Under the pieces are notes generated by a model that was not told where the DNA came from, searched no databases, and saw only the letters and a program-made list of their open reading frames with translations. A program made the position numbers and the translations under genes. Below, one piece after another: positions 58,736 through 61,700 of a DNA stretch of 64,000 nucleotides. This DNA comes from the human T2T-CHM13v2.0 reference genome, Homo sapiens, in assembly GCF_009914755.1 (NCBI RefSeq), contig NC_060925.1; one strand, given 5' to 3'. Each line of letters begins with the position of its first letter. Position 1 is the stretch's first letter.

Positions 58736-61700
58736 GGCCTGGTACAGTGGTTCACACCTGTAATCCCAGCACTTTGGAATGCCAAGGTGGGAGGATCGCT
58801 TGTGCCCAGAAATTCGAGGCTAGTCTGGGCAACAAAGCAAGACCTCATCTCTACAAAAAAATAAAGTTACCCAGTCATCTTGTGCACCTGTGGTCCCAGC
58901 TACTTGGGAGTCTGAGGCTAAAGGATTTCTTGAGCCCAAGAGGTTGAGGCTGCAGTTACCCAGCTTGGGTAACATAGTGAGACCTTGTCTCAAAACAAAA
59001 CAAAAAAAACTTTTTGAATGAGTTCTCTATATTCTCTATGCCCTATACCTCACCAGCCACTTATTCTTTAGCCTCTTTCAGCCACCTTGCCTTCTGTCTA
59101 CCTTTCTCCTAAATCTCCTCTGCACAGGATTGCCAATGACTTTTCTCAGTTGTCCTCTTGACTTCTGGATATTTTCTTCTATCTCTCCTTATTATTTTTG
59201 TCATTACCAGGAATCCTTGGTATTCTACAGGTTCCTATTGTCTGCCTTCTCATTCTGCCTTTACATTTTATTAAAATTCCCATTCATTTCAGTTGCTTCA
59301 ATCATCACCTATTGCTATTATATGTGATTAAAATCTTGATTCAATCCTTGAACCCTCTGCAGCTTTGGTCTGTCCCTTTGGCCTCTCTCCCTCTCTTCAA
59401 GAGTTTATTGATCACCTATTATGTATGGAACACTGTCCAACATCTGGATATATTGATGAATAAAACAGATATAGTCTCTGCTCTTAGAAAGTGTTTTGTT
59501 GGACCATCTCTTCAGTAGTTTGTCCTCTCTACAAACCTTTGTCTTTACTACTTCTGTATTTGACATCACAGTTGCTTCTAAGTACCTTCATTCAAACTTC
59601 GGAGACAGTCTTGTCTTTTCGCTTCACCTTCATTGTTCTTCTTCAAATTTTTCTCAAGATAATATGCCCTGCTCTTGATCCACACTTCTCAACTGAGTTC
59701 TAACCTTCCTTTTTTTTTTTTTTTTTTTTGAGACGGAGTCTTGCTCTGTTGCCCAGGCTGGAGTGCAGTGGCGTGATCTCAGCTCACCGCAACCTCCACC
59801 TCCCAGGTTCAAGTGATTCTCGTGCCTCAGCCTTGAAAGTAGCTGGGATTACGGTGCGCACTACCATGCCTCGCTAATTTTTATATTTTTAGTACAGATG
59901 GAGTTTCGCCATGTTGGCCAGGCTGGTCTCAAACTCCTGACCTCAAGTGATCTGCCCGCCTCGGCCTCCCAAAGTGCTGGGATTACAGGCATGAGCCACT
60001 GTGCCCTGCCTTAAGACTTTCTTGAATGGGTTCCAAGAAAGACTTCTTGTGACTCTAATATCAAAAAAACCTTCATTGATTCCTATTATTCACTGCATGA
60101 AGGGTTTTCATGGACCTGATTTTAGTTTAATGTTTTCAGCTTTATCTTGCACTGTTCACTTGCCACTCATACTGGAATGATTGCTGGTTCTGGAATTGTT
60201 GAAGAGAGCTGAATTTGAATTTAATCCTGGCTATACCAGTCAACTGGCTTGGACACATATCTAACCTTTCTAAGCATCATGAATTAATTATATAAAAAGC
60301 AGAATCTAGCACAGTGCCTGGCATGTAGCTGACACTCTGAGTGCTCATTTCTTGTCTGTGGTTTTCAGTCTCTGGTGTTGTACACATCATTTGCCTTTGC
60401 CCGGAGTATCTGCATCCTCTTCTTCTTGTCCCCCACCTTGCACTTAAAATTCTCTCCATCCTTTAATACCCAGTTTAAATACTACTTATTTTTTATTCTT
60501 GACATTTCACCTGGAGAGTGAACTTGTCTTTTTCTGGATTCCTCTAGTTTATCAGGCCACTGATCAGTTACTACCTTACTTGATACTTTGTTGTGGAGTG
60601 GATCTGATTCTGCTCTGAAATCTTTCCTCTCTATATACACACCTAAGGTAATGCCTTTCACTGATACAATACTCAGTAATTAACTTATGGAGAGAAGTTG
60701 TTTGATCTTCAGTCCTTGTCTTTCTTGGACCCTTGTATGGATAAGGATGCTTTTTAGGAGAACTTCCTTGAATAAGTATTCATGTTTCTGATTTCCCTCC
60801 ATTAAAGGGAAAATCCAATGTTTTGGCTTGGGAATGGTACAGCATGCTTCGGAAAGGCAGTACTTACTCAGAATTTTCCCTTTCCTGGGCTCAATTATGT
60901 TACACTTCTCTCTAGCCTCAAATATTTTATTGGGACTTCGAGTTTCTTTCATTTACATGCGGTTCCTTGATTATACCACCTGGACAATCTGACTGGTACT
61001 CTTTTCTGCTGGCTTAGTTCCTAGGCAATGGAGTCATTTGCCTAGGAACTAAGCCAGCAGAAAAGAGTACCAGTCAGATTCTTCTAAAGACCCTTCACCA
61101 TCCCTCCTGGGAGGCTGGGTAAAATGGCATCCTCCTAGTGATGGTCAAAGCAAGGTCCCATTGGCTTTTGGTTGCCCTGAGAGCGTAGAAGGACAGTGTC
61201 ACATTTGCCCTGTTCTGATCAGGTACTATACCTATCTTGTCTTTAGTATATTTAATTGCTTCCTCTCCACTAAACTGATATTATTGTTTTTTTAATGTAA
61301 ACTTTTTATTAAATTGTATATATAGAAATCTTACATGTTTAGCTCAGTGATATTTCATAAAGTGTCACAGCGTAACCAGCACCCAGTTCAGCAGCAGAAC
61401 CTTACCACAGCCCCAGTCACTACAACCTCCTACCAGTGGTAACCACTATTCTGGCTTCTAATACCATAAGTTAGTTTTGCCTATATTTAAACTTTATATA
61501 AATAGAATCATATAGTATATACTTTTTTTGTTTCTGACTTCTTTCATGCAACATAAAGTTGTGGTTTGTTATAGTTTTTCCATCATATGAATATAACACC
61601 ATTTCCATCTATCCATTCTGTTAATACACATATTTGGATTGTTTCCAGTTTTTGACTGTTGAAAATAATGCTTCAGGCTGGGTGCAGTGACTCGTGCCTG

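What the first reader, a model, noticed from the sequence alone, without database searches (positions are those of the whole stretch)
60986..61080. Perfect 43-bp hairpin (natural shRNA-like palindrome) inside AGO1 intron 12
Seen: two 43-nt arms that are exact reverse complements around a 9-nt loop (TGGAGTCAT). They lie in sequence that does not resemble Alu, MADE1 or MER5 MITEs as I know them, and a self-complementary CCTAGG sits near the apex. A perfect stem this long is not expected by chance in 64 kb. Established: stems of ~35 bp or more with a small loop are substrates for Drosha/DGCR8 and Dicer, and also bind PKR and ADAR; DNA palindromes extrude cruciforms; Microprocessor regulates DGCR8 through hairpins in its own mRNA. 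Inference: a recent fold-back event, or arms homogenised by intra-strand conversion, has placed a potential miRNA/endo-siRNA precursor or Microprocessor cleavage site in the Argonaute-1 pre-mRNA. This is the best candidate here for an undescribed autoregulatory element.
Basis: partly seen in the sequence, partly recalled or inferred. Interest (0 to 1): 0.8.

Follow-up and report, generated by a model that had tools for sequence, protein, structure and literature searches.

The report
Template-switch palindrome in AGO1 intron
A real, single-copy, perfect 43-base-pair palindrome sits in an AGO1 intron, but it is best read as a by-product of DNA replication copying one arm from the other, and nothing found here shows that it regulates the gene.

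Summary
Arms 60986-61028 and 61038-61080 are 43 nt and 100% complementary, with a 9-nt spacer. The RNA fold is -86.1 kcal/mol, z = -15.7. It is the only perfect inverted repeat among 11 in the window and is single copy in the genome.

A published catalogue of great-ape template-switch mutations (Walker 2021, S2 Data) lists event 890 at GRCh38 chr1:35910149-35910162: 13 nt, gold standard, human = descendant, type 4132. An offset taken from a paper (+137,093, give or take 50) puts that interval on the palindrome. Within that range, only the two arms offer the reverse-complement partner such an event needs.

The perfect stem is therefore most likely a quasi-palindrome completed by a 13-nt templated fill-in. 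The older, interrupted repeat predates the human-gorilla split.

I found no support for a miRNA or autoregulatory role. No Rfam family reaches threshold, there is no MIR gene in the hub table, and the stem and loop lie off the Microprocessor optimum. Only 57 of 6,054 such hairpins are annotated miRNAs. Small-RNA data could not be reached. Interest is low.

The parts
60986..61028 (+). Left (5') arm of the palindrome, 43 nt
   Evidence: I1, 100% complementary; one search confirms it equals the reverse complement of the right arm and has no CpG.
61029..61037 (+). 9-nt spacer or apical loop; two further pairs form inside it in the minimum-energy fold, leaving a 4-nt loop
61038..61080 (+). Right (3') arm of the palindrome, 43 nt
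60981..60984 (+). Four extra basal pairs with 61083-61086, across a 1 x 2 internal loop
   Evidence: Minimum-energy structure.
61083..61086 (+). Partner of 60981-60984 in the basal extension of the stem
61043..61055 (.). Candidate (a) for the 13-nt templated fill-in of Walker event 890. It is preceded by GCC (61040-61042) and ends in GCC (61053-61055). Its template would be 61011-61023 in the left arm.
   Evidence: offsets 137,107-137,110 give a 3-nt direct repeat. Type 4132 in reverse orientation puts the copy to the right of its template on the + strand. My recalled GRCh38 start of the transcript gives offset 137,107; that number comes from no call.
61061..61073 (.). Candidate (b) for the same 13-nt fill-in. 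It is preceded by CAG (61058-61060) and ends in CAG (61071-61073). Its template would be 60993-61005 in the left arm.
   Evidence: offsets 137,089-137,092, nearest the centre of the paper-derived offset of 137,093.
61011..61023 (.). Left-arm stretch complementary to candidate (a). It is the template if the fill-in is in the right arm, or the mirror candidate for the fill-in itself (offsets 137,136-137,139).

Best explanation
The element is a single-copy DNA palindrome made and kept perfect by short-range template switching during replication. It is not a transposon and not a selected RNA element.

An interrupted inverted repeat already existed before the human-gorilla split. One arm was 43 nt. 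The other was 30 nt, pairing on both sides of a 13-nt gap. In the lineage leading to human, the 3' end of a nascent strand folded back on this quasi-palindrome. It copied 10-13 nt from the opposite arm and returned to its proper template at a 3-nt direct repeat. That filled the gap and produced the perfect 43-bp stem. This corresponds to event 890 of Walker et al. 2021, a quasi-palindrome-to-palindrome conversion.

Because the element lies in the sense strand of AGO1 intron 12, every pre-mRNA carries a hairpin of about 45 bp. I infer that this hairpin is removed and degraded with the intron and may be edited by ADAR. Any cleavage by Drosha or Dicer is at most inefficient, with no effect on AGO1 output.

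Shown: the structure, its uniqueness in the genome, and the catalogued event at this place. Inferred: the exact 13-nt block, the fold-back path, and neutrality.
For: Structure and uniqueness:
- Perfect 43-nt arms.
- The 151-nt stretch around the hairpin gave 1 first-look candidate in the 3.1-Gb assembly, namely itself, with only the self match on the opposite strand.
- Flanks 60560-61400 gave 2 candidates: the locus itself and one 67-nt match at 78% identity further downstream.
- The nearest interspersed repeat starts at about 61409.
- No target-site duplication: the left flank ends GGAC and the right flank begins CTTC.

Published event:
- Walker 2021 S2 Data (BED, GRCh38.p12) holds row 890: chr1 35910149-35910162, reverse, gold_standard, descendant, 4132.
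- It is the only row with coordinates beginning 35908 to 35912.
- It is listed in the Introns and Long non-coding RNAs sheets of S3 Data and in no other sheet.

Mapping to the window:
- rs6682769 at GRCh38 chr1:35860595 is given as 22.6 kb upstream of the AGO1 MANE transcript.
- The hub table puts exon 1 of that transcript at window 34102. The T2T-to-GRCh38 offset is therefore +137,093, give or take 50.
- Over those 101 offsets, the 13-nt interval has a reverse-complement partner of 8 nt or more within 140 nt only when it lies in one of the two arms.
- Over 2,001 offsets (give or take 1 kb), a full 13-nt partner exists only in the arms, at 62 offsets.
[quoted passage not shown] Two right-arm blocks of exactly 13 nt carry a 3-nt direct repeat.

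Effect and mechanism:
- Removing either block lowers RNA fold stability from -84.6 to -58.5 or -51.9 kcal/mol but leaves a bulged hairpin.
- Walker et al. themselves suggest quasi-palindrome-to-palindrome conversion for a subset of their events.
- Monttinen 2023 states that template switches make perfect hairpins in one event, counts 6,054 miRNA-sized ones in human genic regions, and finds 57 of them annotated as miRNAs.
Against: - I could not read the alignment of event 890. S1 Data was too large, so the species carrying each state, the switch points and the copied length are not seen.
- The mapping rests on an offset known only to within about 50 nt, plus the assumption that T2T and GRCh38 differ by no sizeable indel over the 27 kb between exon 1 and the palindrome.
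- The direct-repeat test is weak. Among the 101 offsets, 12 lie in the three stretches that show a 3-nt repeat at either end of the interval (the call's own list names six of them), and two different right-arm blocks qualify. By symmetry, the fill-in could be in the left arm.
- The state before the event still pairs on both sides of the gap (25+5 or 23+7 bp). That looks like an older perfect palindrome that lost 13 nt, so the polarity could be the reverse of the published call.
- Neutrality is inferred from base rates and from the absence of annotation, not from expression, CLIP, editing or population data. None of those could be reached.
Confidence: 0.6

Rival explanations
1. Human retains an older perfect palindrome. 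The 13-nt difference would be a deletion between 3-nt direct repeats inside one arm, carried by chimpanzee and gorilla through incomplete lineage sorting or recurrent slippage. The published polarity would then be wrong, and no fill-in happened in the human lineage. The first origin would still be an older template switch or fold-back.
For: Removing either candidate block leaves sequence that still pairs on both sides of the gap: 25+5 bp or 23+7 bp. That is hard to obtain except from a once-continuous palindrome. Both candidate blocks are bounded by 3-nt direct repeats, the usual substrate of slippage deletions (the mechanism is recalled). Walker's gold-standard set includes 193 events consistent with incomplete lineage sorting. 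With no CpG in the arms, 86 nt stay unchanged for 9 My with probability 0.68, and for 30 My with probability 0.28, at 0.5e-9 per site per year (the rate is recalled).
Against: The catalogue calls human the descendant state, with significance in all relevant comparisons. Sharing between chimpanzee and gorilla needs lineage sorting or two identical deletions. The species pattern of event 890 was not seen, so chimpanzee may in fact share the human state.
Confidence: 0.25
2. The hairpin is a functional RNA element. It would be a young miRNA or endo-siRNA precursor, or a Microprocessor cleavage site in the AGO1 pre-mRNA that feeds back on Argonaute-1 levels.
For: It lies in the sense strand of an intron of an expressed gene. 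That is the context of 81 of the 99 intragenic template-switch miRNA loci (111 loci in all) in Monttinen 2023. The fold is very stable. A CNNC-type motif, CTTC, lies at 61081-61084 just 3' of the stem (read; the motif rule is recalled). Sub-threshold hits to generic miRNA hairpin models appear.
Against: No Rfam family reaches its gathering score: 32.1 bits against 80, 26.1 against 60, and 24.9 against 120. The hub's RefSeq table has no MIR gene. The stem is 43-49 bp with no mismatch or wobble, and the loop is 9 nt or 4 nt. The quoted optimum is a 35-bp stem, a loop of 10 nt or more, and basal mismatches that aid processing. The base rate is 57 of 6,054. AGO1, EIF2C1, AGO3 and AGO4 are absent from the main text and from Dataset S1 of that paper. 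A T-free 16-nt string from the arm occurs in 0 papers of the library and not in the one readable supplement of Friedlander 2014. Event 890 is not in the TF-site, enhancer, promoter or accelerated-region sheets. The perfect form is limited to the human lineage or the African apes, so it cannot be a conserved regulator.
Confidence: 0.04
3. It is a remnant of a palindromic miniature transposon (MITE) or another interspersed repeat.
For: The overall shape, two inverted arms around a short centre, resembles a MITE.
Against: It is single copy: 1 candidate with the 151-nt query, and 2 candidates with the 841-nt query, of which only the locus itself covers the hairpin. The same tool did detect a mid-copy repeat 330 nt downstream, with 536 candidates. 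There is no target-site duplication. Perfect arms are not expected for human DNA transposons, which are tens of millions of years old (recalled). The tool warns that very common words are skipped and that counts are lower bounds, and no Dfam search was possible.
Confidence: 0.03
4. It is an assembly artefact of T2T-CHM13.
For: None found. Palindromic chimeras are a known artefact of long-read libraries (recalled).
Against: A template-switch event with human as the descendant state was called at this place on GRCh38.p12, an independent assembly. The element is 95 nt long in unique euchromatic sequence.
Confidence: 0.01

Closest known systems
Short-range template-switch mutations of the four-point model (Loytynoja and Goldman 2017; Walker et al. 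2021), in particular quasi-palindrome-to-palindrome conversion (Ripley 1982, as cited in Walker 2021)
   Same: A fragment of one strand is replaced or extended by the reverse complement of nearby sequence, which leaves a perfect inverted repeat. A catalogued gold-standard event (890, type 4132, human descendant) maps here. The 13-nt size is close to the median copied length of 12 reported. A direct repeat sits at the return point.
   Different: The resulting perfect stem (43 bp) is far longer than the copied piece, because the event completed a repeat that already existed. The origin of that older repeat is not explained. The paper does not discuss this locus.
Template-switch-derived primate miRNA genes such as hsa-mir-4713 and hsa-mir-576 (Monttinen, Frilander and Loytynoja 2023)
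   Same: An intronic, sense-strand hairpin whose base pairing was made by template switching in the primate lineage.
   Different: Those loci have miRBase or MirGeneDB annotation and read stacks, and 105 of 111 gained mismatches after the event. This hairpin has no annotation, no reachable read evidence, is still perfect, and is longer than the preferred 35 bp.
Microprocessor cleavage of hairpins in the DGCR8 mRNA (autoregulation; recalled, no call)
   Same: A hairpin inside the transcript of a gene of the small-RNA pathway.
   Different: The DGCR8 hairpins lie in the 5'UTR and coding region of the mature mRNA and are conserved. This one is deep in an intron, is young in its perfect form, and has no evidence of cleavage.
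Palindromic MITE-derived hairpins such as MADE1 and the mir-548 family (recalled, no call)
   Same: A near-perfect long hairpin formed by two inverted arms.
   Different: MITEs are multi-copy and flanked by target-site duplications. This element is single copy and has none.

Membership tests
Product of a short-range template-switch mutation (four-point model) | The descendant sequence holds a fragment that is the exact reverse complement of sequence within about 100 nt | tested here: met
   every 13-nt interval within either arm has a perfect partner in the other arm.
Product of a short-range template-switch mutation (four-point model) | Related species carry the state before the event, so the change is a single clustered difference in alignment | tested here: inconclusive
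   No ape sequence is available here. Walker 2021 S2 Data lists event 890 as gold_standard with human as descendant. It maps onto the palindrome within an offset known to about 50 nt. The alignment itself (S1 Data) could not be read.
Product of a short-range template-switch mutation (four-point model) | For types with switch point 4 before point 1: a short direct repeat flanks the inserted copy | tested here: inconclusive
   Two right-arm blocks of 13 nt carry 3-nt direct repeats, at 61040-61042 / 61053-61055 and at 61058-61060 / 61071-61073. Which block is the event, if either, depends on the exact offset. Among the 101 offsets, 12 lie in the three stretches that show such a repeat at either end of the interval.
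Canonical pri-miRNA (Microprocessor substrate) | Stem of about 35 bp | tested here: not met
   43 perfect pairs, or 45-49 with the apical and basal extensions. The preference is quoted from Monttinen 2023.
Canonical pri-miRNA (Microprocessor substrate) | Unstructured apical loop of 10 nt or more | tested here: not met
   The spacer is 9 nt, and the loop is 4 nt in the minimum-energy fold.
Canonical pri-miRNA (Microprocessor substrate) | [quoted passage not shown] | tested here: not met
   The arms are 100% complementary. The feature is quoted.
Canonical pri-miRNA (Microprocessor substrate) | Membership of a described miRNA family or an annotated MIR gene | tested here: not met
   Rfam's best hit on the hairpin is 32.1 bits against a gathering score of 80, and it matches both strands. 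The hub's RefSeq table lists no MIR gene in the window.
Canonical pri-miRNA (Microprocessor substrate) | 21-23-nt read stacks with 2-nt 3' overhangs that depend on DROSHA and DICER | not testable with these tools
   No small-RNA or CLIP data are held. Searches reached no catalogue that could be searched.
MITE or DNA-transposon remnant | Several related copies in the genome | tested here: not met
   Only the locus itself matches the hairpin. The tool's counts are lower bounds.
MITE or DNA-transposon remnant | Target-site duplication flanking the terminal inverted repeats | tested here: not met
   The flanks read GGAC on the left and CTTC on the right. They share no duplication and no TA.

The most novel reading that the evidence does not exclude
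A template switch in the human or African-ape lineage turned a bulged hairpin in the AGO1 pre-mRNA into a perfect duplex of about 45 bp. That duplex is now cleaved by Drosha or Dicer, or heavily edited by ADAR. AGO1 would then have gained a lineage-specific, co-transcriptional brake, or a new small RNA, tied to the very pathway it serves.
Probability: 0.04. Interest if true: 0.7.

Novelty: new member of a known kind. Interest (0 to 1): 0.2.

Why it matters
If the reading is right, the hairpin is a clean worked example of how replication template switching completes and maintains long perfect hairpins inside genes. That is the raw material from which young miRNAs are occasionally drawn. It is not evidence of Argonaute autoregulation.

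The mutation is already one row among 4,017 in a published catalogue. What is added here is the link from that row to a 43-bp perfect stem in AGO1. Also added is the observation that the state before the event looks like a damaged older palindrome, which makes the direction of change worth checking.

It would matter more only if small RNAs or Microprocessor cleavage were found at the hairpin.

Tried and rejected

Literature on this locus:
- A search for AGO1 intron, intron of AGO1, AGO1 pre-mRNA, intronic hairpin and EIF2C1 intron gave 45 papers, of which 25 were listed. In the listing, the one paper with an AGO1 term is on Arabidopsis. None of the 25 titles is on a hairpin in human AGO1.
- A T-free 16-nt string from the right arm occurs in 0 papers.

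Catalogues of novel miRNAs:
- For Friedlander 2014, only file S6.txt could be read. It held neither the string, nor the recalled hg19 coordinate prefixes, nor even 'chr1'. The xls tables could not be read.
- Londin 2015 is not held.

Other template-switch catalogues:
- For Loytynoja and Goldman 2017, 3 of 4 held files were searched with 0 hits. Data S1 and S2 are PDFs and unreadable.
- For Loytynoja 2022 (polymorphic template switches), only an index file is held and the data are PDFs. Whether the fill-in is polymorphic in humans is therefore open.
- In Monttinen 2023, Dataset S1 has 0 hits for AGO1, EIF2C1, AGO3 and AGO4. The SI Appendix and Datasets S2 and S3 are unreadable. The list of 6,054 genic hairpins was not available.

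Attempts to fix the coordinate offset exactly:
- Passages from PMC11270204 and PMC6694283 gave no coordinates.
- A search for recalled coordinate digits returned what look like reference-list numbers in unrelated papers; I did not open any of them.

Microprocessor data:
- A search for DROSHA fCLIP papers listed 8 of 49 papers. None was read, and the Genome Research 2017 mapping paper was not among them.

Rejected on evidence: MITE, Alu-derived hairpin and assembly artefact (see the rival explanations).
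Full report
**1. The observation**

The window holds two 43-nt arms, 60986-61028 and 61038-61080. They are 100% complementary and separated by 9 nt. As RNA, the 151-nt stretch around them folds at -86.1 kcal/mol, against a mean of -35.2 for 200 dinucleotide-preserving shuffles (z = -15.7). 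As DNA, the hairpin folds at -53.2 kcal/mol (z = -16.0). In the minimum-energy structure the stem gains four basal pairs (60981-60984 with 61083-61086) and two apical pairs, which leaves a 4-nt loop.

Of 11 inverted repeats of 18 nt or more with arms within 150 nt in the whole window, this is the only perfect one. The other ten are 79-86% complementary, and several are A/T-rich or Alu-like. Chance does not produce this: the expectation is 1e-15 in 3.1 Gb under independent bases. The hub table places the site in AGO1 intron 12, on the sense strand, about 3 kb past exon 12.

**2. It is not a repeat family**

The 151-nt stretch around the hairpin found only itself in the 3.1-Gb assembly: 1 first-look candidate, plus the self match on the other strand. 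An 841-nt stretch, 60560-61400, found the locus and one weak 67-nt match at window 61298-61364. A 1,401-nt stretch picked up a mid-copy interspersed repeat at about 61409-61670, with 536 candidates of which 40 were scored at 69-82% identity. This shows that the tool does see such repeats when they are there.

The flanks share no target-site duplication. Rfam gives only sub-threshold hits of generic miRNA hairpin models on both strands (mir-316 at 32.1 and 30.7 bits against a gathering score of 80). The Alu signal (SRP RNA, mir-1268, mir-3135) starts only at 61677. The tool warns that its counts are lower bounds, and no Dfam search was possible.

**3. A published mutation event lies on it**

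Walker, Scally, De Maio and Goldman (PLoS Genet 2021, PMC7954356) detected 4,017 short-range template-switch events in human, chimpanzee and gorilla alignments. Of these, 1,503 are 'gold standard' events that could be placed on the tree (I read the abstract, section 8 part 1 of 2, sections 9, 22 and 24, and selected passages).

Their S2 Data is a BED file on GRCh38.p12. I read part 1 of 28 and searched the rest. It holds row 890: chr1 35910149-35910162, orientation reverse, gold_standard, human = descendant, event type 4132. No other row has coordinates beginning 35908, 35909, 35911 or 35912. In S3 Data, event 890 appears in the Introns sheet and the Long non-coding RNAs sheet and nowhere else.

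**4. Mapping the event to the window**

No liftover tool is on hand, so I used an anchor from a paper. PMC12733283, Table 3, gives rs6682769 at GRCh38 chr1:35860595 as '22.6 kb upstream' of the AGO1 MANE transcript (passages only). The hub table puts exon 1 of that transcript at window 34102, which is T2T 35,746,102. The offset is then +137,093, give or take 50. This assumes no sizeable indel between the two assemblies over the next 27 kb. It places the 13-nt interval at window 61057-61069, give or take 50, on the palindrome.

A template-switch event must leave, in the descendant, a fragment that is the reverse complement of nearby sequence. Over all 101 allowed offsets, the interval has such a partner (8 nt or more, within 140 nt) only when it lies in one of the two arms. 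Over 2,001 offsets (give or take 1 kb), a full 13-nt partner exists only in the arms, at 62 offsets. With 4,017 events in the genome, an unrelated event this close would be a coincidence of about 1 in a few thousand (my arithmetic). I put the identification at roughly 85%.

The call was made on GRCh38, an assembly independent of T2T-CHM13. That also speaks against an assembly artefact.

**5. What the event did**

The interval is 13 nt, not 43. Type 4132 means that switch point 4 precedes point 1, so the inserted copy is flanked by a short direct repeat (S5 Fig legend; text). It also means the template lies downstream in the orientation of the alignment block. Because the block is reversed, the template lies upstream on the + strand, and the copy therefore sits in the right arm.

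Two right-arm blocks of exactly 13 nt carry a 3-nt direct repeat:
- 61043-61055, bounded by GCC, at offsets 137,107-137,110.
- 61061-61073, bounded by CAG, at offsets 137,089-137,092.

My recalled GRCh38 start of NM_012199.5 would give 137,107 and so favour the first block. That number comes from no call. The second block lies nearer the centre of the paper-derived estimate. Mirror blocks exist in the left arm, at the edge of the allowed range. I cannot decide between them, and the direct-repeat test is weak: among the 101 offsets, 12 lie in the three stretches that show a 3-nt repeat at either end of the interval.

In every case the meaning is the same. One arm was 13 nt short, and the gap was filled by copying the other arm. 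Removing either block in a script leaves a bulged hairpin of -58.5 or -51.9 kcal/mol, against -84.6 for the present state. This is the quasi-palindrome-to-palindrome conversion that Walker et al. mention for a subset of their events.

**6. What remains unexplained**

The state before the event still pairs on both sides of the gap, by 25+5 or 23+7 bp. A short match beyond a 13-nt gap is unlikely by chance. The earlier state therefore looks like a once-continuous palindrome that had lost 13 nt between short direct repeats. Two histories fit:

- (i) An old palindrome suffered a deletion and was then refilled by template switching in the human lineage. This is the published polarity.
- (ii) Human keeps the old perfect form, and chimpanzee and gorilla carry the deletion through lineage sorting or recurrence.

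I give (i) about 0.6 and (ii) about 0.25. Either way, the core inverted repeat is older than the human-gorilla split, so the whole hairpin is not a recent fold-back.

Perfect arms put only a loose limit on age. With no CpG in the arms, 86 nt remain unchanged with probability 0.76 over 6.5 My, 0.28 over 30 My and 0.02 over 90 My, at 0.5e-9 per site per year (the rate is recalled). The event-890 alignment, or the orangutan and macaque sequence, would settle the matter.

**7. Function**

Monttinen, Frilander and Loytynoja (PNAS 2023, PMC10710096; I read the abstract, introduction and the whole Results) show that template switches make perfect hairpins in one step. In human genic regions, 53,666 putative events gave 31,007 new stems, of which 6,054 were of miRNA size. 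Only 57 of those (0.9%) are annotated miRNAs. They quote a strong preference for a 35-bp stem and an apical loop of 10 nt or more. They also note that basal wobbles and mismatches aid processing, and that 105 of 111 such loci acquired further mutations after the event.

This hairpin has 43-49 perfect pairs and a loop of 9 nt or 4 nt, so it lies off that optimum. It has no Rfam family and no MIR gene in the hub table. It is absent from that paper's text and from Dataset S1. Event 890 overlaps no TF site, promoter, enhancer or accelerated region in Walker's sheets.

The hairpin lies about 3 kb from the nearest exon inside the window, so a direct effect on splice-site choice is unlikely (inference). 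I therefore take it to be a neutral intronic hairpin that is degraded with the intron. ADAR editing of a nuclear duplex of about 45 bp is plausible on general knowledge, but it was not tested. Longer, though imperfect, inverted repeats also lie within the AGO1 gene span, at 22799-23255 and 51744-51949. This is therefore not the only double-stranded stretch in the pre-mRNA.

I could reach no small-RNA, CLIP, editing or population data. Supplements that may bear on this could not be read: the Walker S1 Data, the Monttinen SI Appendix and Datasets S2 and S3, the Loytynoja 2017 and 2022 data PDFs, and the Friedlander xls tables.

**8. Verdict**

The feature is real, non-random and unique in the genome. 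Its perfect form is explained by a known mutational mechanism and corresponds to an event already catalogued in print, although the locus is not discussed there. The searches found nothing on a human AGO1 hairpin.

The autoregulation idea is untested and has a low prior. I give the novel case 4%, with an interest of 0.7 if true. Overall interest is 0.2. I class it as a new member of a known kind.

Noticed in passing
window 61409-61670: A mid-copy interspersed repeat: 536 first-look candidates in the genome, 40 scored, at 69-82% identity on many chromosomes. The family was not identified because no Dfam search is available here.
   Followed up: no
window 61677-61960: An Alu element. Rfam Metazoa_SRP scores 67.7 and 41.9 bits, below the gathering score of 70, and there are sub-threshold hits to the Alu-derived models mir-1268, mir-3135, mir-1285 and mir-1304.
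   Followed up: no
window 22799-22978 / 23076-23255; 51744-51815 / 51878-51949; 31403-31458 / 31565-31620: Longer but imperfect inverted repeats (180, 72 and 56 nt at 80-83%). They are probably inverted Alu pairs within the AGO1 gene span and would form longer double-stranded RNA than the hairpin studied here.
   Followed up: no
window 60799-60814 / 60873-60888: A 16-nt inverted repeat, 88% complementary with a 58-nt spacer, about 100 nt upstream of the palindrome. It is the only other place within 1 kb where an 11-nt piece of the event interval could find a reverse-complement partner.
   Followed up: partly
GRCh38 chr1:35910149-35910162 (about window 61043-61073): Walker 2021 S3 Data lists event 890 under 'Long non-coding RNAs' as well as 'Introns'. 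The annotation they used therefore has a lncRNA overlapping AGO1 intron 12, whereas the hub's RefSeq table lists none in the window.
   Followed up: no
window 61040-61042 / 61053-61055 and 61058-61060 / 61071-61073: Two pairs of 3-nt direct repeats, each 13 nt apart, lie inside the right arm, with mirror images in the left arm. These are possible slippage points for deletions that would break the palindrome.
   Followed up: partly
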